A stretch of DNA of 64,000 nt from Trypanosoma brucei (GCA_000002445.1 CM000207.1:1632001-1696000), one strand, 5' to 3'. Counted from the stretch's first letter, positions 1 to 17,384 are shown. Notes: generated from the sequence alone by a model not told the origin. Numbers and translations: made by a program.

Positions 1-32
1 ATTATACACCTGACGTCAAGTGAAAAAAACTC

Positions 33-117
33 GGCGCGTCAGAAACAATATTAGCGTCACGGGTTCTGTTCAGATGTTGCTGTTAATTTGTTATATTAGG
101 TATTCATCACACGCACC
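33..117 (-). ncRNA. Box C/D snoRNA candidate (85 nt)
   Basis: Minus-strand RNA reads 5'-GGUGCGU-GUGAUGA-...AACAGCAACAU-CUGA-...GCUAAUAUUGUUU-CUGA-CGCGCC-3'. It has a canonical C box (GUGAUGA), an internal D' (CUGA), a 3' D box (CUGA) and a 6-bp terminal stem (GGUGCG/CGCGCC). It lies in the same orientation as the transcription unit. Confidence 0.6.
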
Positions 118-135
118 TACTCGCCGAACTGCTAA

Positions 136-241
136 CCCCACACGTCAGCTCGGAGCGAAAGATAGAGTTCACAGTTGCATCGACATAGTGTGTTTCCGTT
201 CCGCCTACGCGGTATCGGAAGCTCTTTCATCAGTGGCGGGG
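136..241 (-). ncRNA. Box C/D snoRNA candidate (~105 nt)
   Basis: Minus-strand RNA reads 5'-CCCCGCCA-CUGAUGA-...-CUGA-CGUGUGGGG-3'. It has a C-like box (CUGAUGA, non-canonical first base), a D box CUGA about 85 nt downstream and a terminal stem (CCCCGC/GUGGGG). Confidence 0.45.
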
Positions 242-710
242 AACGACGGATGGGGGATAAACACTTAACAGAGGGGAAAATGTGCATGGAATAGGTAATA
301 CAATAAGAGAAGGGGGAAGTAAACAGGGAATCACGGAAGTAAGGTTCAGTGCAGGTCTGTGTTATGGTGTCCTCACAGGTTCTCGGTGCAATTTGAACAT
401 ATTGTACATCGTCACCCACTACATTCCCTCTCGACTACCCCGCCACTCACAACATTATACTGCCGCCCACATTAGCCATTCCAAACTCACTGCGGTAATG
501 TATCCTCGTGTGTGCTTGCGTGTATATGTGTATATATGTGTATGTGTATGGAGTCGCGCCCAAGTGCCCGAGGTTGAGTACCTGAAGGACACGATAGCCA
601 TCAGACCCGAAAGGTGATTTGTGTTGTATAGATCCCTCATGAATATGACGTCGGAACATGTTTGGACGCTCAACTAGTTTCCATCATCGGCCACACACAT
701 ACACAAACAT

Positions 711-760
711 ACAAGCACACACACATACACACACTCACATATATATATATATATATACAT
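711..760. repeat. Compound (CA)n(TA)n microsatellite inside repeat unit (also 2449..2500)
   Basis: Contains acacacacatacacacactcac followed by (at)n. Copy B has one extra CA and a T-to-C change, so copy number is unstable. Confidence 0.8.
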
Positions 761-1770
761 ACACGACAAACCTCCGCACACCCAAACACTTACTCAGAAG
801 TCAAACAGACAAAATTAACTGATGTCAGCATCAAATAAATTCAGCTGAAACACGGATTTGACAGACTCATCATTGACACAAAACAAGGTAAGAGCAACAC
901 CACCAAACAGTTCAGAGCAGGAATAAGAAGGAGGGCGGCATGTACATATGTGTGTGGGGTAATGTTGGTGTAATGGGGAAAAGGTGAGAAAGTTACCGTA
1001 CGCCTCGGACGCAGGACGCACGCGGCTGGAATGTTGTGCGGCGCCCCAGAAACTATCGTAACACTCGTGCTCAATCCATGTTCGGGTGTGTGTCATAAGA
1101 CCGTCGTAAGTGGTTTATCGTCATGGGCAAAGTACAAGGTGTATCCGCAGTGACCAAAGAGACAATGCAGAATCTGGCAAAGAGAAAGGGCGAAAGCCAA
1201 GCAATAAGGGTGGTTTCAAATGTAAAACAAGGAAAAAGGGAGGGGAGGGGGGTGACAGTAACCACACACATGGTATGATAACGTGCCACGACGAAACCAA
1301 ACACCATCAGCCGGGGAAAGAAGAATATTCTTTAAATGGGTTATTGTCATTCAAATACACTCAGAGACTCCAGTCCATTGATGTCATCAAGTAGCGCGTT
1401 TACGACAGGTTAGGTGTACCGCAAAGCAACTCTCGGAGCGCACCAAGATGGCCTACGGCATGCAATCACAAAACGGCCGCTCCATGGCTAAAGCCCCTTT
1501 TTCATTTTTGTTGTCCATAAAAACACTGAAGGGAGAAAACAGAGGAAGGAGAAGGTAACAATATCAAACAAGAGAAGAGTGTGCACTAACCAATAACCTC
1601 CGTTATAATTCTCGGACCACGTGAGTGTGCAAACAAGGACACAGAAATGTTAGCCCAAGACACAACTCCAATGTGGGCCTTCCCCTACGGTTACTGCCCC
1701 AACACATAATTGTAATTATAATAATAACCATAATCATAATTATACACCTGACGTCAAGTGAAAAAAACTC

Positions 1771-1855
1771 GGCGCGTCAGAAACAATATTAGCGTCACGG
1801 GTTCTGTTCAGATGTTGCTGTTAATTTGTTATATTAGGTATTCATCACACGCACC
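1771..1855 (-). ncRNA. Box C/D snoRNA candidate (copy in repeat unit B)
   Basis: Identical to 33..117 at an offset of +1738. Confidence 0.6.
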
Positions 1856-1873
1856 TACTCGCCGAACTGCTAA

Positions 1874-1979
1874 CCCCACACGTCAGCTCGGAGCGAAAGA
1901 TAGAGTTCACAGTTGCATCGACATAGTGTGTTTCCGTTCCGCCTACGCGGTATCGGAAGCTCTTTCATCAGTGGCGGGG
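1874..1979 (-). ncRNA. Box C/D snoRNA candidate (copy in repeat unit B)
   Basis: Identical to 136..241 at an offset of +1738. Confidence 0.45.
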
Positions 1980-3985
1980 AACGACGGATGGGGGATAAAC
2001 ACTTAACAGAGGGGAAAATGTGCATGAAATAGGTAATACAATAAGAGAAGGGGGAAGTAAACAGGGAATCACGGAAGTAAGGTTCAGTGCAGGTCTGTGT
2101 TATGGTGTCCTCACAGGTTCTCGGTGCAATTTGAACATATTGTACATCGTCACCCACTACATTCCCTCTCGACTACCCCGCCACTCACAACATTATACTG
2201 CCGCCCACATTAGCCATTCCAAACTCACTGCGGTAATGTATCCTCGTGTGTGCTTGCGTGTATATGTGTATATATGTGTATGTGTATGGAGTCGCGCCCA
2301 AGTGCCCGAGGTTGAGTACCTGAAGGACACGATAGCCATCAGACCCGAAAGGTGATTTGTGTTGTATAGATCCCTCATGAATATGACGTCGGAACATGTT
2401 TGGACGCTCAACTAGTTTCCATCATCGGCCACACACATACACAAACATACAAGCACACACACACACACACACACTCACATATATATATATATATATACAT
2501 ACACGACAAACCTCCGCACACCCAAACACTTACTCAGAAGTCAAACAGACAAAATTAACTGATGTCAGCATCAAATAAATTCAGCTGAAACACGGATTTG
2601 ACAGACTCATCATTGACACAAAACAAGGTAAGAGCAACACCACCAAACAGTTCAGAGCAGGAATAAGAAGGAGGGCGGCATGTACATATGTGTGTGGGGT
2701 AATGTTGGTGTAATGGGGAAAAGGTGAGAAAGTTACCGTACGCCTCGGACGCAGGACGCACGCGGCTGGAATGTTGTGCGGCGCCCCAGAAACTATCGTA
2801 ACACTCGTGCTCAATCCATGTTCGGGTGTGTGTCATAAGACCGTCGTAAGTGGTTTATCGTCATGGGCAAAGTACAAGGTGTATCCGCAGTGACCAAAGA
2901 GACAATGCAGAATCTGGCAAAGAGAAAGGGCGAAAGCCAAGCAATAAGGGTGGTTTCAAATGTAAAACAAGGAAAAAGGGAGGGGGGGTGACAGCAACCA
3001 CACACATGGTATGATAACGTGCCACGACGAAACCAAACACCATCAGCCGGGGAAAGAAGAATATTCTTTAAATGGGTTATTGTCATTCAAATACACTCAG
3101 AGACTCCAGTCCATTGATGTCATCAAGTAGCGCGTTTACGACAGGTTAGGTGTACCGCAAAGCAACTCTCGGAGCGCACCAAGATGGCCTACGGCATGCA
3201 ATCACAAAACGGCCGCTCCATGGCTAAAGCCCCTTTTTCATTTTTGTTGTCCATAAAAACACTGAAGGGAGAAAACAGAGGAAGGAGAAGGTAACAATAT
3301 CAAACAAGAGAAGAGTGTGCACTAACCAATAACCTCCGTTATAATTCTCGGACCACGTGAGTGTGCAAACAAGGACACAGAAATGTTAGCCCAAGACACA
3401 ACTCCAATGTGTCGCATTTTTTTTCGTAATATAGTTTTTGAAAGTTTATTCAAATTTTTTGGAAGAAGGCTGAGTTGTTGCAGGTTCTTTACCTATGATA
3501 GGTCATATTGCTGATTATATTTTTTGTTCAATTGTTTTTTGTGTATAGAATGATTTCTCCTTTTTTATTTTTTTTCACCAAGTGGCTTGATAATTTTGGT
3601 GGAACCAACTGTTTTTTTTTTTTTCGCATGATATATTGTTAATAAGTTGAAACTCAAAAGTAAATGAGTAGGGTAACCATTATTTTGTGATAACTGCACG
3701 TAGCTTCGCTATAGTTGAAGCATCGATGTGCCCTTTTTCATTACTTTTTTTTTTACGTTTCTTGCATTGTTTAGCAATTGAGTATCGATTTTGTGTCCGC
3801 TTCCGATATTACTTTGGCAGGGTCAGTGATGTGGTTTAACAAAAAGGAAAAAATCAGCTGAATGGTGTTGTTTACTTGTTTGATGCCATTACCACTTGTT
3901 TTTTATTTTCGCTGTTGCATCATATCGCAGCTGTTCTCGCTGCCGTTTGATTATCACTCTCTTGATGTAGTTGGTAGTAACGTTT

Positions 3986-4381
3986 TCACATCCTGTAATC
4001 TCTTCTGTTTTCGTTTGATGCGTTGTTGTTTGTGTCGTAACTGTTTGAATAGTATGCGTCTGTCCCATATTCCCTGTTTTGGTTGCTGGAAAAGTCATAA
4101 GTTGGGTATTGCGATGTTTGCTGATTGTTTGATGGGTTATTATTTGCCGCTTCCTCCTTTTTGTGTTCGTTGGACGTGTTTCCATTGTCATTAGATTCTG
4201 TTCTGCCTTTAGCGCTTTGGGCCACCCCCGCAGCTTGCCGACGGGCGACAGACCTCTTATGAATCAAACAACCGACTATCCACAGAGCGGTCAGACCGAT
4301 ATAAACGGCGATTGTGATGAGGTATTTATACCACTCCCCCCCTTCCTTCTTCTCCTCTGGTTGTTGTTGTTGTTGTTCCAT
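3986..4381 (-). CDS. Hypothetical small membrane protein (131 aa): acidic/Q-rich N-terminus, one TM helix, N/S/Q/Y-rich tail
   Basis: ATG at 4379-4381 (minus). One clear hydrophobic helix (YLITIAVYIGLTALWIVGCLI) followed by basic residues HKRSVARRQ. Same orientation as the unit, but low-complexity composition makes coding uncertain. Confidence 0.3.
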   Translation of the reverse strand: MEQQQQQPEEKKEGGEWYKYLITIAVYIGLTALWIVGCLIHKRSVARRQAAGVAQSAKGRTESNDNGNTSNEHKKEEAANNNPSNNQQTSQYPTYDFSSNQNREYGTDAYYSNSYDTNNNASNENRRDYRM

Positions 4382-5041: not shown

Positions 5042-5569
5042 TCAGTCCTGCTTCTTGTCGGGATTAATAGCTTCGGCTTCACTAGCAAGAGGCGCTTCCC
5101 TTAAAGAGTAAACAACGTATACCGTCATTATCACTATAGTAGAAAATACCGCCATCAAACCGCCGCAGGTTCCCGGATCAACATCCGCAAAGGGAGCAAC
5201 AATATGCATGCCGATGAGGAGGATTAAAATAGGAACAGTTAGCATGAGCACCGAAAACAAGAGAAAGACAGACGCAACCCGTTGGTTATGCGGCATTCTC
5301 ATATTTTGTGCAAATAGACGGAAACCCGCTGCCTTATCCTTCAATGGACGAAATGCAGCCCTATTAAGTTCCTCACGTGCCTCCTTGGACATGCGCAGAG
5401 TCTCCTTTGTTGACGGCTCATCGCCACTTTCGGCGTTATCACCGTTTAATAGAGAACTGTAGAGCTCTTTTCTAATATACTCACGTTCCCGATGCTCCTC
5501 TTCCTGAAGAGTCCGTAACGTGTCAGCACCTCCCTGAGGCTGCGGCCTCTCATCGTCAGCTCCGCTCAT
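5042..5569 (-). CDS. Hypothetical membrane protein (175 aa): soluble N-terminal region plus two C-terminal TM helices
   Basis: ATG confirmed at 5567-5569. A polypyrimidine tract (minus strand) lies directly upstream at 5570-5660. Two hydrophobic helices at the C-terminus. Confidence 0.6.
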   Translation of the reverse strand: MSGADDERPQPQGGADTLRTLQEEEHREREYIRKELYSSLLNGDNAESGDEPSTKETLRMSKEAREELNRAAFRPLKDKAAGFRLFAQNMRMPHNQRVASVFLLFSVLMLTVPILILLIGMHIVAPFADVDPGTCGGLMAVFSTIVIMTVYVVYSLREAPLASEAEAINPDKKQD

Positions 5570-6059: not shown

Positions 6060-7889
6060 CTATGAATTGTCTTCTATGAATCCAGCGTCAGGCAACCTCA
6101 CATCCACCGCTGCGAGCGTTGAGAGGCTGTGTGAAGAAGTGACAGAGAGGCAAATACCCTCGTCAATCGCGTTGTCATCAAGGCGTTCCACAAGCACCTC
6201 ACATGTTGAAACTGTGGATGGCAGAAGGAATGGCACACACAAAATTGAGTTTGATATTTTGTAAGTAGTACATGAACAACTTACTACAAGGGACAAGTCT
6301 CGTAATACCCCCTTGCTAATGTTTTGAATCTTTGCCCTAATCCTAAATACCGGGCCAAGGCCTTGAACGGATGTGATCATACGAACAGAATTGCCAAGCA
6401 TGGGTACTGCAGGGGCGGCAGTTTTCTTCGGTGATACCGCCGGTTTGTGAGTATCTGAAAGTAGAGAGAGATATGCCTTCGCTGTTGTTAGGCGTAACAT
6501 AGTTAAATCACGCTGGAACAAGCGGTGCATGTCAATGCTGTAGGCACGTTCCCTCTCTGCTTGTGCCACAAAAACATTTGTAAGGGGGGGGACAGGAATA
6601 GGAACGTCCTGTTCTCCCGGTGGTCCAGAATCCTGATTTCGCTTGCATTCGAAGGACGCGTTTCTATGTAACATCTCCACCACAAGGGTGCCGTTTTGCA
6701 TAACAAGTATAAGTGCGGCATCTTCGCGCCCGTATCGTCCAAACTTCATGGCTGTTACCCTTCCGTACACTTGAGCCTCATGCAACAACGTTTTACCCAC
6801 GTATACCCGAACCATACCACTCTTTAACGCCACAATGACCCCGCGAGCTTTGCCTGACGCAGAATCAAGTAGTGTAGCGATGCCTGTTATCGGAGAGGGA
6901 AGGAAGACACGCATCTCACACTTCCCCTTAAGTTTATAATACGAGAGCGTGTTTTGTGTTGTCGCAACTGCCACGAGATTTTCACAGAGTGCAATTTGCA
7001 CGATAGCACCATCAGAATGAATAGAATAATCCGCTAATTCACCATTTTTCACTGTGTACACACAACCATCGCGGCAGGCCACAACGATGCGGTAGTCAAC
7101 ACGAAACGAGCCAAGGGACACGATGCACGTTGGAACACCGGGTAGTCGCACCCGGTGATGAACTCCCGTAAACTTCTCGGCCAGTACATATATATGACGC
7201 GTTTCTGTACCAATAACAAGGCAGCTACGGCCACCATCCTCTACACGGTCTAACGAAAGGGAACTTATGCACGTCACTACATCCTGCTCACTAAGGGGCT
7301 TAGTCTTATGGTATTGCACAAAACGTTCCCGCTCCTCCGTCCCCTGCAGTGCTAAGAGATCCGCTGACCGTGTTGACAGCTTCACGCCCGCCATCCGCCG
7401 CTCCTTCAACCTCGTGCACGCTTCTGCTGCAGAAATATTACCATTGCGAAGTTGCTCCCACACGGAAACATCGACCTCATCCAGTTCTACACACGGTACG
7501 GTAAAGCGGTACAGCGGCTTCATCTTACGGTACATGAAAACGTCTGGTCCGCAGGAAACTGCAATGACAGGAAGGTGTTGATCATCACCAGCTTCAGCAA
7601 AAACCACAGTAATCGCAGAGGGAACCGCTGAGAGCCGAATCTCTTCCGAAAGAGATGTACCGTCATATATCTTCAAAGTTTTGGAGGCGTCCGCCACAAT
7701 CAGCTTATTGTCACCGTTACCATAGATGTCGGCAACCTCAACGCAATTTGAGAACGCCTGCAAACCTGCTAAACGGTCACGAAAGGCAAAGATCCAGAAC
7801 TCTTTCTGTTGATTCTTTTCGGCATGATTCCTACCTAACTGCTCCCGACGCATGACTATGAACAGTCTATCCAAGGAAAAGAAAGGCAT
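6060..7889 (-). CDS. BBS1: Bardet-Biedl syndrome protein 1 (BBSome subunit BBS1) homologue, 609 aa
   Basis: ATG at 7887-7889. Strong similarity to BBS1 over its length (CRDGCVYTVKNGE, KFGRYGREDAALILVMQNGTLVVEMLHRNASFE, VQGLGPVFRIRAKIQN match conserved BBS1 blocks). Size is similar to human BBS1 (~593 aa). Confidence 0.8.
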   Translation of the reverse strand: MPFFSLDRLFIVMRREQLGRNHAEKNQQKEFWIFAFRDRLAGLQAFSNCVEVADIYGNGDNKLIVADASKTLKIYDGTSLSEEIRLSAVPSAITVVFAEAGDDQHLPVIAVSCGPDVFMYRKMKPLYRFTVPCVELDEVDVSVWEQLRNGNISAAEACTRLKERRMAGVKLSTRSADLLALQGTEERERFVQYHKTKPLSEQDVVTCISSLSLDRVEDGGRSCLVIGTETRHIYVLAEKFTGVHHRVRLPGVPTCIVSLGSFRVDYRIVVACRDGCVYTVKNGELADYSIHSDGAIVQIALCENLVAVATTQNTLSYYKLKGKCEMRVFLPSPITGIATLLDSASGKARGVIVALKSGMVRVYVGKTLLHEAQVYGRVTAMKFGRYGREDAALILVMQNGTLVVEMLHRNASFECKRNQDSGPPGEQDVPIPVPPLTNVFVAQAERERAYSIDMHRLFQRDLTMLRLTTAKAYLSLLSDTHKPAVSPKKTAAPAVPMLGNSVRMITSVQGLGPVFRIRAKIQNISKGVLRDLSLVVSCSCTTYKISNSILCVPFLLPSTVSTCEVLVERLDDNAIDEGICLSVTSSHSLSTLAAVDVRLPDAGFIEDNS

Positions 7890-8249: not shown

Positions 8250-9230
8250 TCAGTGCGCGTCGACGTTGATGCTGGGAGTGCATACAAGCTTCTTTGAAAG
8301 TAGTCCCAGTTGGTAGCACCTCGCCATATCCGTAGGCTGTTGGGCTGGCGTAACGGCCGACACGACATTACACGCCTCGGTGCCTACGGCTGAGTAGCCC
8401 TCCACTGCTACATCGTAACAAACACCGCCAATCTCCATGATCATACGCCCGCTTTTATACACTTTAATTTCTCCCACCTTTCCAGGAGGAAGGTTAGAGA
8501 GCCGAAAGGGTGGGTCCGCCTGGAATCGGGGTAACTGAAACCACACAAGTTCACCCACATTGCGGCGCCCAACGTCCGCCTCAACGTCAAGAGCATTGGC
8601 AGAAGCATGAAGAACATCACGATCGAAGCGCAAGTTGTCCTGTCGGCTGCTCTTCAATTCCTTTTCATATCCTTTTAGGAAGGCAATGCCATCATTCCCC
8701 GTCTCCGCCACCGGCACCTTCACATCACCCTCGACAGAAAACTCCGCCTCATGCTTCGGCTCTGCAGAAACATTGCTGTCCAGTGGGGTTGGACGATAAA
8801 CGGTTGTTGCGGGGTTCTCCGACTCCATCTCAAGTACTGAAGACATGGTGTTCTCCGGAAGGTGCTCCGACGTGGGGGGCAAATTTGAGAAGTCACGCGT
8901 GAGTGCCCTGACGGCAGCTGCTGCAACGGCCACACGACCGAATCCTCGCAAACGCTCACTGCCACCGGGGGTTGCAGCACCTGCGTTGTGAAGTGCTCCT
9001 GAGGGTGCAGAGGACACACCGTTTGCGACATGTTGTTGTGCGGAATACAGTTGCTGTTCTCGTTCCTTCTGCTCCTGCTGAAGTGCAGCCTCCTGTTGAA
9101 GTCGCAAGCGCTCCAGCTGCACAAAACTCAGGTTGTCTAAAGCTGTGGGGGATTCCGATACGTCGGGTTCTTCCTTAGCTCGGACAATATGCCGTGGCTT
9201 AAACTTAAGGTTGGGGACCTTAGGTGGCAT
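8250..9230 (-). CDS. DNA-directed RNA polymerase III subunit RPC4-like protein (326 aa)
   Basis: The C-terminal block PPGKVGEIKVYKSGRMIMEIGGVCYDVAVEG resembles the RPC4 family signature. The track ORF starts at a GTG (9240-9242); the first ATG is at 9228-9230 (MPPKVPNLKF...). Confidence 0.5.
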   Translation of the reverse strand: MPPKVPNLKFKPRHIVRAKEEPDVSESPTALDNLSFVQLERLRLQQEAALQQEQKEREQQLYSAQQHVANGVSSAPSGALHNAGAATPGGSERLRGFGRVAVAAAAVRALTRDFSNLPPTSEHLPENTMSSVLEMESENPATTVYRPTPLDSNVSAEPKHEAEFSVEGDVKVPVAETGNDGIAFLKGYEKELKSSRQDNLRFDRDVLHASANALDVEADVGRRNVGELVWFQLPRFQADPPFRLSNLPPGKVGEIKVYKSGRMIMEIGGVCYDVAVEGYSAVGTEACNVVSAVTPAQQPTDMARCYQLGLLSKKLVCTPSINVDAH

Positions 9231-10082
9231 CGCGCCCGACACTCAGTGGTCTGATGTTGCGGGGAAAATAGGTGTCGAGGGAGAAAGGAGAGAGTGTAGG
9301 TACTTCAATAACGACACGCTCTTCTTTACTGGCTGCCATCCCATGTGCCCAACAAGAAGGGAAGAGGAGAAACAGGGGTAGGGGGAAATGGAACCTTACT
9401 GTTCTTTTTGGAGGACTTTAATTAAACAGCCTTTCCACAAGCAGATAAAACATTTTAAATACCAAAATAACTCTGTTAAGCGTCAACTGACATTACCGCG
9501 GCCTCTACGTCGTTCGGTGTGTATGTTCGTCACAATGGGAGAGTGGAGAGGGATACAGTGCCACTAATGTGTTGCATGAAGCATCGCTCCAGACCTTGTG
9601 TAGGGTCGTGTGGAAAACCAACAGTCCCACCATGGCACCAGAACCCAAATTGTCAAACATTGGAGACTACTTCCCTTCTCCTCCCCTTACACGCACACCA
9701 TTCGGTACACTTCCGCTGCCGTATTTTTTTTCGCTTCGGATTCACCTCCCCATCAGCTGGTGTTCGCCGTTTGCATTCTCGTTCTCTTTTTAAATGACGA
9801 GTCTGACAACCGCACCAAACGATAAAACCAAAGAAAGAAGCGAAGCAAGGGTAAACCCGTAATCATTCTATATATATATATATATATTTGACATTCCATA
9901 ATTCACAATCCCTTCCCTTTAATTTATTGCTTTCGGGAGGGTGGTATCAATGGCACGTACATACACATTGAAAGGAATTAAAACAACAAACAAAAGGCCA
10001 ACAGCAAGAGGTATTAGTTACCGACAACCCACAACCACCCGCACACAGATACCGTGCGCTACAATTCCCCTTTACTAATACC

Positions 10083-11549
10083 TCATAGACTGAGGTCACC
10101 GTCGAAGGAGCTAAAGCCAGCCAACAAAAAAAGTGGGTAGAACGGTTTGAAGCGGATGCTGTTGCACCAATTCCACGCGCTTGTTAATCGGCCATCAACG
10201 CAGCTTCCTGCGTCATCCATGTTATCACCTCCACTGCCATCAAAACCGTGTCGAAAGAAATCACGAAGAATAGCCAGTTTAGCTCCAGTTGGGCTACCCC
10301 AAATCTCTTTTACGTACGCCTTGTGCTCGGGGCTCTCCTCCAGTTTGTCTATATGACTAACAGTTCGAAGGATGGGTATAATTATTCGAGACACCTGACC
10401 ATATTTGTCAATAAAGTGAAAGGCATTCGGCACCTGGTCATCACCCAAGTGGATGCGCTCGGAGCCCACCCATTCACCTAGCTCTTTCTTCGTTTCCTGC
10501 ACAACTTCGTGAATTGCATTGTACAGATTTGGCGCTTTTTGCACGCGCTGATAACCCTGGCCGGTGGAGCGAAACTCATAAGGTTCATTTGGGTTTAACA
10601 TGTCTTCCTCCGCAATTGTCCACAATGAAAACATGCGGCGGCAAATGTTTTTCCAGAGAGAGAGGCTCTGTAATACAAAGAAATATTGACGTCTATGGTT
10701 GTGAGTGAGCCGACTTCCGCCTTCCCCTTCTACAATATTCAAATCTGTAGCTTCTGTCACATTGTTCGGTGAAAAGTGCTGGAGCAAAAGATTCAGTAAC
10801 TCATTGGTGCTTTCTACATTTTCATTTGCGAACTGGTTAGCGTCATTGAGACTCCGGATGGCTATCTCCACCTCGTCCTGCGATCTCCCGGATTTCCTAC
10901 TATATTCCTTTACGACAGAGCTGACGGTTACATCCTTCCGGCGCAGCGCCTCGTTGAGTTTGCTTCTCTTTTTCATGAAAGGTACCGGTGTAATGCACAG
11001 CGGCAGACGTTTGTCCTGCAGCATATCCTCCACACCCAAGTAACTGCAGTAACGCCCGACAGTGATGATTCTCTCTGCAACTGGGAAACCCAGCGCCTCC
11101 TTCACATTCTGGTTCTGCACTGCATCCTGAATCATATACAAGAACTTGACGTAGTCTGTTCTAATGAGATCTGGATTCATCATTTTGTATCGACGATATG
11201 TTTCCACGGCGGACTGAATATCTCTTGCGAACGGTGTGAAATCCTTGTCTCTATAAAGGGCCCCTCCCTTCTCAACATCCAAACCAACAATAAGACCACT
11301 GAGTGCGCTCGTAACTTCCTTGACGATAACGCTGTCCCTCTTGTTACCTTTCAGAGTAGATTCGTTGTCAACCTTATCCGTGTAATGGGAAGCCATGACA
11401 ATGCCCCGCATGAGTCGCTGCACCTTGCGCTCTTTGGGGTTAAGGCGCAGGGGAATGTAATCCGCGTGAGCAATCGGCTCGGGCATAAGGTCATAGTCTG
11501 CCCCGGTGTTACCGTTAACACTATTGGAACGAAGCCCAAAGAGGTTCAT
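10083..11549 (-). CDS. Conserved hypothetical protein (488 aa)
   Basis: Long uninterrupted ORF with ATG at 11547-11549, in the unit's orientation and with complex composition. No family confidently recognised. Confidence 0.65.
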   Translation of the reverse strand: MNLFGLRSNSVNGNTGADYDLMPEPIAHADYIPLRLNPKERKVQRLMRGIVMASHYTDKVDNESTLKGNKRDSVIVKEVTSALSGLIVGLDVEKGGALYRDKDFTPFARDIQSAVETYRRYKMMNPDLIRTDYVKFLYMIQDAVQNQNVKEALGFPVAERIITVGRYCSYLGVEDMLQDKRLPLCITPVPFMKKRSKLNEALRRKDVTVSSVVKEYSRKSGRSQDEVEIAIRSLNDANQFANENVESTNELLNLLLQHFSPNNVTEATDLNIVEGEGGSRLTHNHRRQYFFVLQSLSLWKNICRRMFSLWTIAEEDMLNPNEPYEFRSTGQGYQRVQKAPNLYNAIHEVVQETKKELGEWVGSERIHLGDDQVPNAFHFIDKYGQVSRIIIPILRTVSHIDKLEESPEHKAYVKEIWGSPTGAKLAILRDFFRHGFDGSGGDNMDDAGSCVDGRLTSAWNWCNSIRFKPFYPLFLLAGFSSFDGDLSL

Positions 11550-12554: not shown

Positions 12555-14411
12555 TCAAAGCATGATCGACTCCACCAGTCCACCAGCCACAGTTTCACCA
12601 TCCTGCTGCAGCACGAAACGACCCAAAGAACGACACACTTCCGCGGGTTCCAAAGCAACCTTCCGCTCGGCCCTAAATACGATAATCGCCTGTGTTGACT
12701 TGGGAATGCACTTCACCATGCCAGATGACCAGTTTCCACAGCGGTCCATTTTGGAAACAAGGACCAGAACTTGGAGTTGCACCGTTAATGCGTGGCACAC
12801 CATCGTAAAACGGGCACCGGGCAAGATGGACTTCTGTAGTGTGGTGTATGTTTGTATGCGCGCCTTGAAATCTGTTGAGCAGCGTGTTGCGTCACCACTA
12901 CCGGCTTTGCATCCCACACATCCCGGTCCAAGACCCACAAGAGAAGAGGCGGTGTCAATCACAATTGTGTCGCCCGCAAAAGCGGCGGGGACGAGCCCAC
13001 CCATTGTAGGTTTTTCTATGGATCGAACTTGCACCTTCACATCTGCCGGAACGAACAGCAACTTCTCCCCTTTCTGCACATTTCCGCATTCCACCTTGCA
13101 AAAGATCCTCGAATCTTGTACGTCCTGCACACTCAGTCGTAGCAGAGTGCCCATCATCCTACTTTCTAGCGGACATTGATCAAGCAGCACCACCAACGAC
13201 GGCCCTTTATACCAAGGTGTCAGCCCCACATCAACGACGTTGATGTTTGTTCCCTGAATACCACTAACTGGGCAGAAGCCAGCGACCGCATCTTCCTTGA
13301 AGTGAACCTGCTTCAACAGGTATTTGAGCTCGCGAACAACGAAATCATAGCGCTCTTGGCTGTAACCAACCGAATCCATTTTGTTCACAGCTACAACTAT
13401 GTGCCCCACGCCCAGCATCTTCAGTATCACAAGATGCTCTTTCGTCCCATGAGCAAGTCCCACCTCAAACTCGGAGGTGCCTGCAGTCACAACGAGAAGT
13501 GCTGCATCAGCCTGTGCTGCACTGCTCATCATATTAAGGACATAATCCTTGTGACCGGGCGCATCTAGAACGTGGATGCGACGATGCTCCGTCTCAAAGC
13601 AGTACGACCCCGCGTCGATTGTTACGCCACGTCGACGTTCCTCCTCCGATTGATCGAGTAACCAGGCAAATTTAAACGACTCCTTCTTCATTTGGCGAGC
13701 GTTCTTCTCGTTACGGTCCACCTCTGACTGTGTGACCTTCCCCAGCATCAACAACAAATGCCCGATGGTTGTGCTCTTGCCTGCATCAACATGACCAGCG
13801 ACGATAAATGTGCAATCCAGTTTGCTTGGGTCAGGAGCTATTTCCTTGACCATGTCCTTCTTACCTTTATGTTGTTGTTGCTGCTGCTGCCGTTGTTGCT
13901 GCAGCTGCGCTGAGGAGGGGGAAAAATCAACTGCTGCTCCGATCTGTTCCTTGGTGGAAGCCGTCATACTGGTTTCTCGCTTTGCAGTTGATCCCACCTT
14001 TAGCGACCGACCTTTACCAGGAATTGGAGTTGATACGGCAGGGCGCACAACAGTTGAAGTCACTGCACTTACTGCCTGGCACACGTCGTAATTACACGCG
14101 CGCAACGCCTCGACGGCACGCGGCGTATCACACCTGCACGTACCGTTAGTTGTCAACAACTGCTCATAGAAGCCCGGTAAAAGCGTTTGGAGCAACTCAT
14201 AATCAACGTCTTGCTTATCTAAACGGTGAATATCCGACTCCTCTGGTTTTTGACCCTCCAAATTATCCGTTCTGCTGACACCAGCGGGTTGCTGCGCTTC
14301 CTCACCTCCATAATAACCCTCCCCCTCCTCATAGTAGTAATCTTCTTCTTCGTAGTAGTCGTCATCCATGTAGTCATCCAGTTCATTGTAAAACTTCCTG
14401 TGGCGATTCAT
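12555..14411 (-). CDS. EF1-alpha-like translational GTPase of the HBS1/eRF3 subfamily (618 aa) with Tyr/Glu/Asp-rich N-terminal extension
   Basis: G1 GHVDAGKST, G3 DAPGH, G4 NKMD and EF-Tu-like domains II/III present. The N-terminal ~200 aa are low complexity (DDYYEEEDYYYEEGEGYYGGEE, poly-Q). ATG at 14409-14411. Confidence 0.75.
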   Translation of the reverse strand: MNRHRKFYNELDDYMDDDYYEEEDYYYEEGEGYYGGEEAQQPAGVSRTDNLEGQKPEESDIHRLDKQDVDYELLQTLLPGFYEQLLTTNGTCRCDTPRAVEALRACNYDVCQAVSAVTSTVVRPAVSTPIPGKGRSLKVGSTAKRETSMTASTKEQIGAAVDFSPSSAQLQQQRQQQQQQHKGKKDMVKEIAPDPSKLDCTFIVAGHVDAGKSTTIGHLLLMLGKVTQSEVDRNEKNARQMKKESFKFAWLLDQSEEERRRGVTIDAGSYCFETEHRRIHVLDAPGHKDYVLNMMSSAAQADAALLVVTAGTSEFEVGLAHGTKEHLVILKMLGVGHIVVAVNKMDSVGYSQERYDFVVRELKYLLKQVHFKEDAVAGFCPVSGIQGTNINVVDVGLTPWYKGPSLVVLLDQCPLESRMMGTLLRLSVQDVQDSRIFCKVECGNVQKGEKLLFVPADVKVQVRSIEKPTMGGLVPAAFAGDTIVIDTASSLVGLGPGCVGCKAGSGDATRCSTDFKARIQTYTTLQKSILPGARFTMVCHALTVQLQVLVLVSKMDRCGNWSSGMVKCIPKSTQAIIVFRAERKVALEPAEVCRSLGRFVLQQDGETVAGGLVESIML

Positions 14412-17384
14412 ATTATTCCACTTCCTACGCTGCTGTACTTCCCCTCCCTCTACCGACAGTACCGCAAATCAACTAATTTTGTTGCGTAAATTATATATAT
14501 ATATATAAGCAAAGACCGCACACAAGAGCAGCGTAAGTGTGAAAAAAAAGAGAAATAAGGGAAAAGACAGATGGAGTTTGTAGTGACTATTGCAGAACCC
14601 CAAGTTCTTTCCGCAGAAGCAGCAACCGCGATAAAAACATTTTCTTTTTTTTTTCATATTGTGTTTAGTTTTTTTTTGGAATAACCGCTGCGACGATTTC
14701 TCCTTCCTTTTACTCTTTTTGTTATTTCATGGTGAATTGGAAAGAGGGAGGGAGCAGATCGCACTTCTTAGCCAACCTCCCACCCAATCCCCATTTTCCT
14801 TTTTTTTTTCCCTCTCGTTACTCCTCTTGACTTTTTTTGTTATTTCACCGTTTTACTTTTATTTTTTTTTTTTGTTTGCTTTTCTTTTAGTTCCTTCAGA
14901 AGCACCTTAATGTTCCTTTCCTCATACCATTTCCTTCACCTTTTTTTTCTTTCTCTCCGACTCCTTCAGCACACTTATTGTATTAATAATAATAATAATA
15001 ATAGAGGCAGCATCCTCGCCCTCTCCCCAAACCCCACAAAGGACCGTTCACACAAATGCACGTCCACACACACACAAACGAATATAAGGAGGTAAATAGC
15101 CCTCATTCCTTTTTTTTGTTTGTTTCCTTCCTTTCATCTTCTTTTGTTCCTTTCGCCCATTTCATTCTTTCCTTTCCATTATGCACTACACGATGCCCTC
15201 GCATTGGCGGCGCAACACGTCACTCATTTTCTTCCTTTTCTCCTGGCGCCCCTTCCTTTTTTTTTTCCTTCATTCATCTCCGGATTCACTCCTCTGCTCG
15301 TGGCACTGGTACTCAACACTTTGAAAGGAAGAATGACGAGGGGAATCATTTCATGGTGAAACAAAAGAAAATAAGAGGGATAAAAGAAAAAACAGCGATT
15401 ACCCCACGGGCTTCACTTCACTTCACTTCGCTCCCTTTCCTTCTGTCTGGTCGTACCGTTGCGCTTTCGCTCTCATTTATTGTTTATCATTACCATTATC
15501 AACACCACTCTAACCACTACTCCCAATTCCCCACCACTCACCACCAACCTCCTTTTGCCGTTACATCAAACAATAAAGAAAAGGAAAAGCACGAGGTAAA
15601 GTGGAAGAGGGGAATTAAAAACAGAGGAGAGGTCTGAAATGGTTGCCAAAACCCCATCAGTACGATATAATGATAAATAAATGAAGGAATAATTGAGTAC
15701 AGTAACCGATGCCATATCATATGAAAGGGACAAGTTTGGCAGGGGAGAAGACAAATGGCGTGGAGGGAAGTTGACAAATAAAAAGGTAGAAAATGAACGT
15801 CACAGAGAATCCCGTTTGGGCGTTCCTTTTTTTTCCCCCCCCCTCTCCTAACCTTTCCCTCATTAATCTCTACCTTTCTATCTTTCTTTCATATGTGCAC
15901 GAAGGGATTATTGCGGTTTCCGCCTACGCCAATCACAGGGCGACGGCGTATGCATTCCCTCCCTTCCTCCCGCGATCAAATGTTCCCTCTATCTTCAGAC
16001 TTTCTCCTCTCAAGATAAACGCCTTGTTTCCCCCCCCCCTTTTTTTTAAAAAAAAAGAAAACTCCCGTTTCTTCTCTCCCTCTTTTCGCACTGATGCTCA
16101 TTTTCCCGCATGCCGCGCCAACTCCGAGGGATCATTTTCCTTTTCTTTCTGTTTTTATACTTTCTCCTCTCATCTCCTTCCCCTCCCCCTTACCGTCACA
16201 ACATTCCCAAATTAAAAATAAATTAATCAAACATGCTCGGCGAAGAGTGTTGTAGAAACAGCGAGAGAATATATTGTAAGAACGAGACGGCAGAGGAAGA
16301 AAGACATATTTGAACGCAAGGAAGTAATACGAAGGGGAAAAGCACGCACCTACGGGAAACAATACAAAAACAGGAGCTGCTAAAAATAAAATAAAATAAA
16401 ACAAGCGAACAAAAACAGAAAAACGAAGGAGGGAGTCGTATATGGAAAGAGAGAAAATGTGTGTTCATTCCACCATCTCATGCACTTCCCACTCCCTTCT
16501 CATCCCTCTCTCCCCTCTTTCTGTTCCCATCCTCTCTTATGTCCAGCCTCTTTTCTTCTTTTACTTCGGTTATTTTTCCAGTTTTAGTTTGCCCTTCTTC
16601 GTTCCTTTTATTTCGCTCACGTATACAACATATCTTCCCATTTTCCCTTCACTTTCTTTCCCTCTTAACGGTGAAAGCCACCGGAGCTCCCATTGCTTTA
16701 TCATCTTTTTTTTTTCTGTTGTTTTTCTCTTGGTCTCTTCCAATTTCTCATACAATTTTAAAAAGAATGTGTGTTTGCAAGTCTGCAGTTAAATAATATA
16801 ACGCCTCCTCTCGACTAACCGCAGCAGCCACCACACTCTCTTTAATGTATTTTATATGATTTCCCACTCAATTAAGGTCCACCCCATTTCCTTTTCACAT
16901 TGTCACCAATACTCCCTCCTTTTTCTTTTTTACTTCCTTTCCTTTTCTCACTCTTAACATTTGCTGGAATCAGTCACATTACATACTGTTTCGTACCCGA
17001 CGGAGACTCAGGGGCAACAACAACAAAAAAAAAAAGAAAGGTGAAGGAAAGTGGAAGAGGGCGAAAAAGAGTGGCGAAAACAAAATAAAGAAAAGATTTT
17101 CCTGCTGACACATCCCAAAACAACTTCATAAATTTTCAGTCTAAACGAGCGATGGCGGTCGTACCTGAATACCGCCAAGAGCACCCCACTTCTTTTGTTC
17201 CATTGCTTTCACACATATATATACACACAGTATTTCTCTCTTTTCTTATGTCTGCCTAACCCTTCTCATAAGTACTCATACGCGTGTGCGCTGAAGCGTA
17301 CGCGTTGTCTTCCCTTTTTTTCTTCAACCTTTTCCTTCCATCTCCCGTTCGACTCTCCGCTCGCACGCTGCAGTGATGCTGATC

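What the first reader, a model, noticed from the sequence alone, without database searches (positions are those of the whole stretch)
1..3411. Non-coding ~1.74-kb head-to-tail tandem repeat that looks like a reiterated snoRNA gene cluster
Two copies of a 1738-bp unit are more than 99% identical and have no credible ORF. On the transcribed (minus) strand each unit carries at least two elements with full box C/D snoRNA architecture, plus weaker ones. In trypanosomatids, snoRNA genes are known to lie in tandemly repeated clusters inside polycistronic units and to be processed from the read-through transcript. This locus fits that picture and probably continues left of the window. If these are real snoRNAs, their guide sequences and rRNA 2'-O-methylation targets are unassigned here.
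Basis: partly seen in the sequence, partly recalled or inferred. Interest (0 to 1): 0.75.

Follow-up and report, generated by a model that had tools for sequence, protein, structure and literature searches.

The report
Known T. brucei TB9Cs2 snoRNA cluster

Summary
Window 1-1675 and 1739-3411 are head-to-tail copies (period about 1738 bp, 3 mismatches and 2 small indels) with no credible ORF. It is the TB9Cs2 snoRNA cluster of T. b. brucei TREU927 chromosome 9. Rfam finds TB9Cs2H1 once per unit on the minus strand, and four published TB9Cs2C3/C5 primers match exactly. The flanking BBS1 protein is identical to the TREU927 protein. Each unit holds nine snoRNA genes on the minus strand, in the order H1, H2, C7, C1, C2, C3, C4, C5, C6. 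All seven C/D elements carry 10-13 nt of perfect antisense to real kinetoplastid-like rRNA, ending one nucleotide before a D or D' box. The +5 rule reproduces the published methylated bases, their spacings (26, 17, 11 and 103 nt) and the published T. brucei LC-MS fragments. H1 fits Psi680 and the H2 candidate fits Psi1248. The array is syntenic and tandem in T. b. gambiense, T. vivax, Leishmania donovani and Leptomonas, and present in T. grayi and T. conorhini. Conservation between T. brucei and T. vivax is confined to the nine elements. All differences between the two copies lie in spacers. The window cuts the array, which has about 3.5 units in T. b. gambiense. Novelty: already known. Interest is low.

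The parts
1..3415 (-). Tandem snoRNA gene array, TB9Cs2 cluster. It shows 1.96 units of about 1738 bp. The 5' end in the direction of transcription is at 3415/3411, and the array is cut by the left edge of the window.
   Evidence: repeat; Rfam; published primers; orthologous arrays
1610..1679 (-). TB9Cs2H1: single-hairpin H/ACA-like snoRNA with an AGA box. Its pocket fits LSU-beta Psi680.
   Evidence: Rfam RF01554, 86.8 bits. The pocket pairs UGAGU[UU]GACUCCAGU with the 3' arm 14 nt from AGA, and the site lies 21 nt after the C7 Gm site, equal to 680-659. LC-MS fragment UYUG. Conserved in 6 species.
3346..3415 (-). Outermost (first transcribed) copy of TB9Cs2H1. Its first 4 nt are GCGA instead of GGCC because the repeat boundary lies inside the gene, and two basal stem pairs are lost.
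   Evidence: Rfam 70.5 bits with two non-canonical pairs. The same variant occurs in T. b. gambiense at L130 14469-14538, 70.5 bits.
1431..1497 (-). Probable TB9Cs2H2: hairpin plus AGA. The 3' pocket arm CUUGGUGC pairs with GCACCAAG immediately 5' of LSU-alpha Psi1248. The second copy is at 3167-3233.
   Evidence: site lies 219 nt after the C5 site; published difference is 220; arms and AGA invariant in 5 species; LC-MS fragments AAGY and YG; coordinates
1304..1390 (-). TB9Cs2C7: box C/D. The D guide targets LSU-beta Gm659 and the D' guide targets Um685. The second copy is at 3040-3126.
   Evidence: G2678 and U2704 in L047, 26 nt apart; LC-MS GG(Gm)GAAAGAAGAC and AC(Um)CCAG; both guides invariant across species
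1002..1126 (-). TB9Cs2C1: long box C/D snoRNA of about 120 nt. It has C box AUGACGA, D' AUGA and D box CCGA. The D' guide targets LSU-beta Cm1413. It is published as an abundant rRNA-processing snoRNA. The second copy is at 2742-2866.
   Evidence: AGACCGUCGU; conserved from the C box to CCGA, which reads CUGA in Leishmania; LC-MS AGA(Cm)C; function
791..875 (-). TB9Cs2C2: box C/D. The D' guide targets LSU-alpha Am743 and the D guide targets Cm760. The second copy is at 2531-2615.
   Evidence: A664 and C681, 17 nt apart; LC-MS G(m1A)(Am)AC and U(Cm)A(Am)ACAG
598..689 (-). TB9Cs2C3: box C/D with C box AUGAUGG and D' CCGA. The D' guide targets LSU-alpha U914 and the D guide targets Gm925. The second copy is at 2336-2427.
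   Evidence: the published C3 primers bracket it; U819 and G830, 11 nt apart; LC-MS ACCC(Gm)A(Am)AG; function
343..416 (-). TB9Cs2C4: box C/D with C box GUGACGA. The D guide targets SSU Gm1895. The second copy is at 2081-2154.
   Evidence: GCAGGUCUGUG; LC-MS CA(Gm)G and A(Gm)GU; only the D guide is conserved
142..235 (-). TB9Cs2C5: box C/D. The D guide targets LSU-alpha Gm1028. It is also published as an srRNA1/3'ETS processing factor. The second copy is at 1880-1973.
   Evidence: the published C5 primers bracket it; G933, which is the C3 site plus 103 nt; LC-MS G(Gm)AGC
36..111 (-). TB9Cs2C6: box C/D. The D' guide targets SSU Um714. The second copy is at 1774-1849.
   Evidence: UGUUGCUGUUAA; LC-MS U(Um)G and (Um)GC; D' guide invariant, D-side guide not conserved
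692..760 (.). (TG/CA)n-(TA)n microsatellite in the C2-C3 spacer. A second CA-rich tract lies at about 498-552. These are spacer sequence, not genes, and they account for unit-length differences.
   Evidence: the CA indel and a mismatch between copies fall here

Best explanation
Window 1-3415 (minus strand) is the 5' part of the TB9Cs2 snoRNA gene array of Trypanosoma brucei brucei chromosome 9. Each unit of about 1.74 kb encodes nine small nucleolar RNAs in the order H1-H2-C7-C1-C2-C3-C4-C5-C6. Shown here: the repeat itself, the identity of the locus, the box architecture, the antisense elements next to D/D' boxes, the pocket fit of H1 and (for the 3' arm) H2, and the evolutionary conservation restricted to the nine elements. 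Taken from the published model, not tested here: the array lies in the sense orientation in a long RNA polymerase II polycistronic unit, is transcribed as a precursor that is trans-spliced and polyadenylated, and the individual snoRNAs are cut and trimmed out of it. The seven C/D RNAs assemble with the fibrillarin (NOP1) snoRNP and direct 2'-O-methylation of the rRNA nucleotide paired to the fifth position upstream of box D or D'. The targets are SSU Um714 and Gm1895; LSU-alpha Am743, Cm760, U914/G915, Gm925 and Gm1028; and LSU-beta Gm659, Um685 and Cm1413. The two single-hairpin AGA-box RNAs assemble with CBF5 and direct pseudouridylation (H1: LSU-beta Psi680 and, as published, Psi518 in helix 69; H2: LSU-alpha Psi1248). 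C1, C3 and C5 additionally act in trypanosome-specific LSU rRNA processing. Tandem reiteration probably serves gene dosage.
For: Identity of the locus. Rfam RF01554 (TB9Cs2H1) matches at 86.8 and 70.5 bits, once per unit, on the minus strand. The four published TB9Cs2C3/C5 silencing primers match exactly, with sense primers on the minus strand. The window's BBS1 protein is identical to XP_827351.1 of T. b. brucei TREU927, on a 3.06-Mb contig.

rRNA complementarity. A 22-base pattern built only from the two guides of one element retrieved at least 120 metagenome contigs. The six long ones checked are complete eukaryotic rDNA units. All seven C/D elements have 10-13 nt of perfect antisense ending 1 nt before a D/D' box. 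Stretches of 11 nt or more number 27 observed, 0 for reverse-complemented snoRNAs, and a mean of 2.5 (maximum 9) for shuffles. The +5 rule gives the published base at every site and the published spacings of 26, 17, 11 and 103 nt. The predicted contexts match the T. brucei LC-MS fragments.

H/ACA elements. H1 pairs around the U 21 nt after the C7 Gm site (Psi680), 14 nt from AGA. The H2 3' arm pairs next to the U 219 nt after the C5 site, where the published difference is 220. Both hairpins have invariant arms and AGA box across 5-6 species, with variable apical loops.

Conservation. Syntenic arrays occur downstream of BBS1-VMA21 in T. b. gambiense, T. vivax, L. donovani, Leptomonas, T. grayi and T. 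conorhini. T. brucei/T. vivax similarity is confined to blocks that coincide with the nine elements. Boxes and assigned guides are invariant while unassigned halves drift. All differences between the two copies fall in spacers.

Context. All 18 ORFs of 250 aa or more are on the minus strand. Published function and expression.
Against: Nothing contradicts the identification. There are limits. No T. brucei rRNA sequence was available, so complementarity was tested on environmental rDNA whose kinetoplastid origin is inferred, plus short published T. brucei LC-MS fragments. The H/ACA pocket scores alone do not exceed shuffled controls, so H1/H2 target assignment rests on positional coincidence with the published Psi map. 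The 5' pocket arm of H2 could not be paired convincingly with the surrogate rRNA. H1 pairs only weakly (about 3+3 bp, estimated by hand) with the published Psi518 site. C1 and C2 lack a terminal stem of 3 bp or more, and C1 has a non-canonical D box (CCGA). Expression, processing and RNA ends were not testable here.
Confidence: 0.97

Rival explanations
1. The repeat is a non-functional satellite or a degenerate mobile element, and the box-like motifs are chance matches.
For: Short C (UGAUGA) and D (CUGA) motifs are frequent by chance. The unit contains microsatellites. Several sub-threshold Rfam hits are clearly spurious, such as the mir-297 hits on CA/TA repeats.
Against: There is an Rfam hit well above the gathering score. 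Guide-rRNA complementarity is far above controls and sits in the exact position relative to the boxes. Targets coincide with experimentally mapped modifications. Conservation across deeply divergent trypanosomatids is restricted to the nine elements while spacers diverge. No similarity to retroelement proteins was found in any ORF.
Confidence: 0.01
2. The two copies are an assembly artefact (a duplicated contig end or a mis-joined repeat) rather than a real tandem array.
For: Repeats like this break assemblies. The GCA_001457755.2 contig stops about 440 bp into the array, so copy number in any assembly is uncertain.
Against: The copies differ at 3 substitutions and 2 indels, so they are not a literal duplication. 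Independent assemblies and species show the same head-to-tail organisation with their own unit lengths: T. b. gambiense about 1673 bp with 3.5 units, T. vivax about 1584 bp, L. donovani 1339 bp, Leptomonas 1503 bp. The literature describes these clusters as repeated.
Confidence: 0.01
3. The region is protein-coding, with one of the 82-111-aa ORFs being a real gene, and the snoRNA-like elements are incidental.
For: Ten ORFs of 82-111 aa overlap the repeat.
Against: The ORFs lie on both strands, many start with GTG, and none has a Pfam hit below E = 0.09. No gene is called in the orthologous region of T. b. gambiense or T. vivax. The cross-species conservation pattern follows snoRNA boundaries rather than reading frames.
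Confidence: 0.005

Closest known systems
TB9Cs2 snoRNA cluster of Trypanosoma brucei (Liang et al. 2005, RNA 11:619; Michaeli et al. 2012, PMC3273796; Chikne et al. 2019, PMC6411936; Rajan et al. 2023, PMC10662448)
   Same: It is the same locus. The chromosome matches (TREU927 chromosome 9 by exact protein identity). Rfam TB9Cs2H1 hits it. The published primers match exactly. The element count is the same, C1-C7 plus H1 and H2. Every predicted target is identical to the published one.
   Different: Nothing substantive differs. Minor points seen here are not stated in the texts I could read. The outermost H1 copy has an altered 5' end. C1's D box is CCGA. The +5 rule on C3's D' guide gives U914, as in the 2019 paper, rather than G915, as tabulated in 2023.
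Reiterated snoRNA clusters of other trypanosomatids (Leishmania major, Leptomonas collosoma; cited in PMC3273796 references 13 and 14)
   Same: These are mixed C/D and single-hairpin H/ACA-like genes in units of 1.3-1.7 kb, repeated head to tail in the sense orientation inside Pol II polycistrons. The orthologous arrays found here in L. donovani and Leptomonas pyrrhocoris share H1, H2, C7, C1, C2 and C4.
   Different: The element order and content differ. The Leishmania unit carries an extra TB9Cs4H2-like H/ACA gene (RF01558). C5 and C6 (and C3 in L. donovani) were not detected in the repeating unit at the blastn thresholds used.
Yeast and vertebrate methylation-guide snoRNAs acting on the same conserved rRNA sites (the review PMC6562600 gives TB9Cs2C5 = snR60 and TB9Cs2C3 = snR39b)
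   Same: They have the same C/D architecture, the same +5 rule and the same conserved rRNA target regions.
   Different: The genomic organisation differs: independent or intronic genes in yeast and vertebrates, against tandem polycistronic arrays here. Trypanosomatid H/ACA RNAs are single hairpins with an AGA box rather than double hairpins with H and ACA boxes.

Membership tests
TB9Cs2 cluster (T. brucei chromosome 9, snoRNA cluster 2) | Contains the TB9Cs2H1 sequence and structure | tested here: met
   Rfam RF01554 matches at 86.8 bits (1679-1610) and 70.5 bits (3415-3346), against a gathering score of 45
TB9Cs2 cluster (T. brucei chromosome 9, snoRNA cluster 2) | Published TB9Cs2C3 and TB9Cs2C5 primer sequences are present | tested here: met
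   All four primers from PMC6411936 Table S1 match exactly in both copies, with sense primers on the minus strand
TB9Cs2 cluster (T. brucei chromosome 9, snoRNA cluster 2) | Located on T. brucei chromosome 9 | tested here: met
   The flanking BBS1 protein is identical to T. b. brucei TREU927 XP_827351.1 on a 3,057,547-bp contig. The region is syntenic with T. b. gambiense chromosome 9, FN554972.1.
TB9Cs2 cluster (T. brucei chromosome 9, snoRNA cluster 2) | Seven C/D and two H/ACA members with the published targets | tested here: met
   Seven C/D elements were found, and their +5 targets reproduce the published bases and spacings. H1 and an H2 candidate were also found.
Box C/D methylation-guide snoRNA | C box (RUGAUGA) near the 5' end and D box (CUGA) near the 3' end | tested here: met
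   C2, C5, C6 and C7 have a canonical C box. C1 (AUGACGA), C3 (AUGAUGG) and C4 (GUGACGA) have one mismatch. The D box is CUGA in six elements and CCGA in C1, where Leishmania has CUGA.
Box C/D methylation-guide snoRNA | Short terminal stem bringing the C and D boxes together | tested here: inconclusive
   A stem of 3-6 bp is present for C3, C4, C5, C6 and C7. C1 and C2 have fewer than 3 contiguous pairs under my simple criterion.
Box C/D methylation-guide snoRNA | At least 10 nt of antisense to rRNA directly upstream of D or D', with the modified nucleotide opposite position +5 | tested here: met
   All seven elements meet this. There are 27 stretches of 11 nt or more, against 0 for the reverse-complement control and a mean of 2.5 for shuffles. 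The +5 nucleotides equal the published Nm sites.
Box C/D methylation-guide snoRNA | Expressed as a stable RNA of about 70-125 nt bound by fibrillarin/NOP1, NOP56, NOP58 and Snu13 | not testable with these tools
   Published RNA-seq, primer extension and snoRNAi exist for members of the cluster
Trypanosomatid single-hairpin H/ACA-like (AGA-box) snoRNA | A single hairpin of about 65-70 nt followed by an AGA box | tested here: met
   H1 has an MFE of -21.2 kcal/mol and H2 an MFE of -22.7 kcal/mol, each a single hairpin ending in AGA. Consensus folds are conserved in 5-6 species.
Trypanosomatid single-hairpin H/ACA-like (AGA-box) snoRNA | A bipartite pocket complementary to rRNA around a U, 14-16 nt upstream of the box | tested here: inconclusive
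   H1 shows 5+9 bp around the U corresponding to Psi680, 14 nt from AGA. H2 shows 8 bp on the 3' arm next to the U corresponding to Psi1248, 14 nt from AGA, but its 5' arm is unclear on the surrogate rRNA. Scores do not exceed shuffles, so support comes from coincidence with published Psi positions.
Reiterated trypanosomatid snoRNA cluster inside a Pol II polycistron | Head-to-tail repetition of a unit carrying mixed C/D and H/ACA genes, in the sense orientation relative to flanking genes | tested here: met
   tandem repetition; all 18 ORFs of 250 aa or more are on the minus strand
Reiterated trypanosomatid snoRNA cluster inside a Pol II polycistron | Transcribed as a polycistronic precursor that is trans-spliced, polyadenylated and processed | not testable with these tools
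   Stated in the literature; no transcript data are available here

The most novel reading that the evidence does not exclude
The most novel reading the evidence does not exclude concerns H1 and has two versions. In the first, the outermost H1 copy (3415-3346) is a distinct isoform or a defective by-product with its own fate. Its 5' four nucleotides differ and two basal stem pairs are lost, and the same variant is kept in T. b. gambiense. In the second, H1 has a further, unreported interaction with the universally conserved LSU sequence GAGUGUG-UA-ACAACUC. That site gives 7+7 perfect base pairs in all five rDNA units examined, 17 nt from the AGA box, and no pseudouridine is reported there. Neither version is supported beyond sequence coincidence. 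The 7+7 match is equalled by 3 of 40 shuffles.
Probability: 0.05. Interest if true: 0.25.

Novelty: already known. Interest (0 to 1): 0.1.

Why it matters
For discovery it matters little. The cluster, its nine snoRNAs, their rRNA targets and the processing roles of C1, C3 and C5 are published, and knock-out of H1 could not be obtained. What the work does show is that a tool-free reading of raw sequence recognised a real snoRNA array. The check also yields a coordinate-level annotation of both copies, places the array boundary inside the first H1 gene, and shows that the array is syntenic and reiterated from Trypanosoma to Leishmania with conservation confined to boxes and used guides.

Tried and rejected
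1. Liang et al. 2005 (PMC1370750), the original catalogue, is not held. The supplement of Michaeli 2012 that contains all the snoRNA sequences is not held either. Names for C1, C2, C4, C6, C7 and H2 were therefore assigned by target.

2. An unconstrained H/ACA pocket search was uninformative, because shuffled sequences scored as high. The geometry-constrained version is still not significant on score alone.

3. A third hairpin with an ACA box at 602-545 (MFE -19.5 kcal/mol) was rejected as a snoRNA. It has no canonical rRNA pocket above background and is not conserved in T. vivax or other species.

4. I first read TTGA (about 1071) or CTGG (about 1046) as C1's D box. That was rejected after the three-species alignment showed conservation through to CCGA/CUGA at about 1010.

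5. Reaching past the left edge of the window in TREU927 itself failed. Exact look-ups of BBS1 and VMA21 found nothing. The 131-aa ORF led only to a contig that ends about 440 bp into the array. T. b. gambiense was used as a proxy.

6. A suspected second repeat at 14.3-17.5 kb, prompted by two equal-length spurious ORFs in T. b. gambiense, turned out to have no repeat and no RNA family hit.

7. Sub-threshold Rfam hits (SNORD96, snoR38 and SNORD126 over C6 and C2; mir-297 and mir-3149 over microsatellites) are generic C/D resemblance or low-complexity noise.
Full report
**Observation**

The tandem repeat is real. The repeat finder reports 300-nt blocks repeated at spacings of 1736-1740 bp. A local alignment pairs window 1-1675 with 1739-3411 over 1671 columns, with 3 mismatches and two indels: CA at 2455-2456 and GGGA at 1243-1246. 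The window therefore shows 1.96 units, and the array runs off the left edge. ORFs in the repeat are at most 111 aa, lie on both strands, often start with GTG, and have no credible Pfam match.

**Identity of the locus**

A gathering-threshold Rfam scan of the whole window gives only two hits. Both are to RF01554, 'Trypanosomatid snoRNA TB9Cs2H1', on the minus strand, one per unit: 1679-1610 at 86.8 bits and 3415-3346 at 70.5 bits. The name points to cluster 2 on chromosome 9 of Trypanosoma brucei.

The literature search found seven papers that use the name. Table S1 of PMC6411936 lists silencing primers for TB9Cs2C3 and TB9Cs2C5. All four match the window exactly in both copies, with the sense primers on the minus strand.

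The flanking ORFs are all on the minus strand and are as follows.

| Window position | Product |
|---|---|
| 12555-14411 | Hbs1-like GTPase |
| 10083-11549 | DUF2009 |
| 8250-9242 | RPC4 |
| 6060-7889 | BBS1 |
| 5042-5569 | VMA21 |

The BBS1 protein is identical to XP_827351.1 of T. b. brucei TREU927, on a 3.06-Mb contig. The region is 98.8% identical to T. b. gambiense chromosome 9. All 18 ORFs of 250 aa or more in the 64-kb window are on the minus strand. The array therefore sits in the sense orientation inside one directional gene cluster.

**What the published cluster contains**

Published tables list seven C/D members (C1-C7) and two H/ACA members (H1, H2).

| snoRNA | Published targets |
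|---|---|
| C1 | LSU-beta Cm1413 |
| C2 | LSU-alpha Am742/743 (plus neighbouring sites shared with other snoRNAs), Cm760, Am762 |
| C3 | LSU-alpha Gm915 (Um914 in the 2019 paper), Gm925 |
| C4 | SSU Gm1895 |
| C5 | LSU-alpha Gm1028 |
| C6 | SSU Um714 |
| C7 | LSU-beta Gm659, Um685 |
| H1 | LSU-beta Psi518, Psi680 |
| H2 | LSU-alpha Psi1248 |

C1, C3 and C5 have been silenced and shown to affect LSU rRNA processing. Knock-out of H1 could not be obtained.

**Anatomy found in the window**

On the minus strand I find seven C/D-type elements per unit. Five pass a strict filter: C box with at most one mismatch, exact CUGA, and a terminal stem of 3 bp or more. The other two, C1 and C2, have weaker stems, and C1 has a variant D box. 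A fold scan for hairpins followed by AGA or ACA recovers H1 and a second AGA hairpin at 1497-1431.

| Element | Copy 1 (minus strand) | Copy 2 (minus strand) |
|---|---|---|
| H1 | 1679-1610 | 3415-3346 |
| H2 | 1497-1431 | 3233-3167 |
| C7 | 1390-1304 | 3126-3040 |
| C1 | 1126-1002 | 2866-2742 |
| C2 | 875-791 | 2615-2531 |
| C3 | 689-598 | 2427-2336 |
| C4 | 416-343 | 2154-2081 |
| C5 | 235-142 | 1973-1880 |
| C6 | 111-36 | 1849-1774 |

They include 2-3 nt beyond the boxes, and the true RNA ends were not mapped. All nine sequences are identical between the copies, except for the first four nucleotides of the outermost H1. Every other difference between the copies lies in a spacer.

**Test of rRNA complementarity**

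The window contains no rRNA, and no T. brucei rRNA was available. I therefore built a pattern solely from the two guides of one element, spaced as the published Am743 and Cm760 are: GAAACACGGANNNNNNAGTCAAACAGAC. I scanned the metagenome collection with it. It hit at least 120 contigs. The six long ones I checked are complete eukaryotic rDNA units with SSU genes of 2.06-2.19 kb. Their kinetoplastid origin is inferred, not shown.

Against these units, every one of the seven elements has 10-13 nt of perfect antisense ending one nucleotide before a D or D' box. Stretches of 11 nt or more number 27, against 0 for reverse-complemented snoRNAs and a mean of 2.5 (maximum 9) for 50 shuffles.

I then applied the +5 rule on locus L047. 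My script was one nucleotide off for two D' boxes, and the values below are corrected for that.

| snoRNA | Guide | Predicted base (L047) | Spacing in L047 | Published spacing |
|---|---|---|---|---|
| C7 | D, D' | G2678, U2704 | 26 | 685-659 = 26 |
| C2 | D', D | A664, C681 | 17 | 760-743 = 17 |
| C3 | D', D | U819, G830 | 11 | 925-914 = 11 |
| C5 | D | G933 | 103 after the C3 site | 1028-925 = 103 |
| C1 | D' (AUGA) | C3370 | - | - |
| C4 | D | SSU G1750 | - | - |
| C6 | D' | SSU U663 | - | - |

The published LC-MS oligonucleotides give real T. brucei rRNA sequence around the sites, and they agree with every predicted context:

- GG(Gm)GAAAGAAGAC
- AC(Um)CCAG
- G(m1A)(Am)AC
- U(Cm)A(Am)ACAG
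- ACCC(Gm)A(Am)AG
- G(Gm)AGC
- AGA(Cm)C
- A(Gm)GU
- U(Um)G

**H/ACA-like elements**

Pocket-search scores are not better than shuffles, so I do not count them as evidence on their own. The hits with canonical geometry are informative by position.

- H1 pairs UGAGU[UU]GACUCCAGU, with its 3' arm 14 nt from AGA, around the U that lies 21 nt after the C7 Gm site. That corresponds to Psi680, and the LC-MS fragment is UYUG.
- The 3' arm of the 1497-1431 hairpin (CUUGGUGC) pairs with GCACCAAG immediately 5' of a U followed by G, 219 nt after the C5 site. The published difference is 220, and the LC-MS fragments are AAGY and YG.

Numbering transfer between L047 and T. brucei is exact elsewhere. The H69 U lies 141 nt before the C7 site, equal to 659-518, and Psi1258 lies 10 nt after Psi1248. 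Across 5-6 species, both hairpins keep the AGA box and pocket arms invariant while the apical loops vary. I call 1497-1431 the probable TB9Cs2H2. Its 5' arm pairing remains unresolved on the surrogate rRNA.

**Comparative evidence**

I used BBS1 orthologues as anchors and fetched the downstream regions.

- T. b. gambiense has the same array at L130 14473-20386. It has about 3.5 units of about 1673 bp, starts with the same altered H1, ends just after C2, and is followed by a Syja_N gene.
- T. vivax has at least 3.6 units of about 1584 bp with the same element order.
- L. donovani (unit 1339 bp) and Leptomonas pyrrhocoris (unit 1503 bp) have tandem arrays with a partly different order. L. donovani has an extra TB9Cs4H2-like gene.
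- T. grayi has the T. brucei order, and T. conorhini shows the array at a contig end.

Between T. brucei and T. vivax, blastn similarity is limited to blocks that coincide with the nine elements. Per-element alignments show that boxes and assigned guides are invariant. The unassigned halves, C4's D' side and C6's D side, are not conserved. The three-species alignment of C1 shows conservation from AUGACGA through to CCGA, which reads CUGA in Leishmania. C1 is therefore about 120 nt long.

**Mechanism**

Shown here are the gene content, the strand, the guide-target geometry and the conservation. Taken from the literature are the following: Pol II polycistronic transcription, trans-splicing and polyadenylation of the precursor, processing into individual snoRNAs, methylation by the C/D snoRNP, pseudouridylation by the CBF5 snoRNP, and the rRNA-processing roles of C1, C3 and C5. 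That reiteration serves gene dosage is my inference.

**Verdict**

Both the observation and the interpretation hold, but the locus is the published TB9Cs2 cluster, and its guides and targets are already assigned and in part experimentally validated. Novelty: already known. Interest: low.

Noticed in passing
window 3346-3415 (-); L130 14469-14538: The repeat boundary falls inside the first H1 gene. The outermost copy starts GCGA instead of GGCC, which breaks two basal stem pairs (Rfam 70.5 against 86.8 bits). The identical variant is present in T. b. gambiense.
   Followed up: partly
window 1002-1126 (-); alignment A1: TB9Cs2C1 is unusually long, about 120 nt. Its 3' box is CCGA in T. brucei and T. 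vivax but canonical CUGA in L. donovani. The 3' half, GGGGCGC...GCGUGCGUCCUG, is highly conserved, which fits its published role as a processing snoRNA.
   Followed up: partly
window 598-689 (-), D' guide of C3: With D' = CCGA, the +5 rule points to LSU-alpha U914, as in the 2019 paper. The 2023 table assigns Gm915 to C3, while its LC-MS data report no modification detected at 915.
   Followed up: partly
window 1610-1679 (-) against the H69 region of LSU (L047 LSU 2537): H1 fits Psi680 well (5+9 bp). At the other published target, Psi518 in helix 69, I find only about 3+3 bp in canonical geometry. This was estimated by hand, not by a script.
   Followed up: partly
window 1610-1679 (-) against L047 LSU U1312 (about LSU-alpha 1408 by offset): H1 also shows 7+7 perfect pairs with the conserved LSU sequence GAGUGUG-UA-ACAACUC in all five rDNA units, 17 nt from AGA. 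No pseudouridine is reported there, and 3 of 40 shuffles score as high.
   Followed up: partly
L134 17368-17440 and repeats (L. donovani): The orthologous Leishmania array contains an extra H/ACA gene matching Rfam TB9Cs4H2 (83.6 bits) between C1 and H2-C7, and the element order differs from Trypanosoma. C3, C5 and C6 were not detected in its repeating unit at the blastn thresholds used.
   Followed up: partly
L009 (GCA_001457755.2 contig CZPT02001527.1); L130: One Trypanozoon assembly contig ends about 440 bp into the array, so assemblies break or collapse here and copy number is uncertain. T. b. gambiense shows about 3.5 units ending right after C2, about 300 bp before a Syja_N (Sac1-like phosphatase) gene.
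   Followed up: yes
L133, L137, L138 (T. theileri, T. grayi, T. conorhini): In these trypanosomes, two genes (a nucleotide-diphospho-sugar transferase, PF03407, and an old-yellow-enzyme-type oxidoreductase, PF00724) lie between VMA21 and the snoRNA array. In T. brucei, T. vivax and Leishmania the array follows VMA21 directly. In T. theileri only a weak C2-like match was seen within the fetched range.
   Followed up: partly
window 545-602 (-): A stable hairpin (-19.5 kcal/mol) followed by ACA lies immediately 3' of C3. It is not conserved in other species, has no convincing rRNA pocket, and is judged not to be a snoRNA.
   Followed up: yes
window 3986-4381 (-): A 131-aa ORF lies between VMA21 and the array. 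It is called as a gene in T. b. gambiense and is identical in GCA_001457755.2, but it has no Pfam family, and its sequence is asparagine- and glutamine-rich. Whether it is a real gene or part of the precursor's 5' region is unknown.
   Followed up: no
window 692-741, 2430-2479, 498-552: (CA/TG)n and (TA)n microsatellites sit in the C2-C3 and C3-C4 spacers. They carry part of the variation between copies and between subspecies in unit length (1738 against about 1673 bp), and they draw spurious miRNA-family hits in Rfam.
   Followed up: yes
window 14300-17500: A 3-kb gene-free gap lies between the Hbs1-like GTPase and the RRM/PABP-like gene. I checked it for another repeat or RNA gene because of equal-length spurious ORFs in T. 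b. gambiense, and nothing was found.
   Followed up: yes
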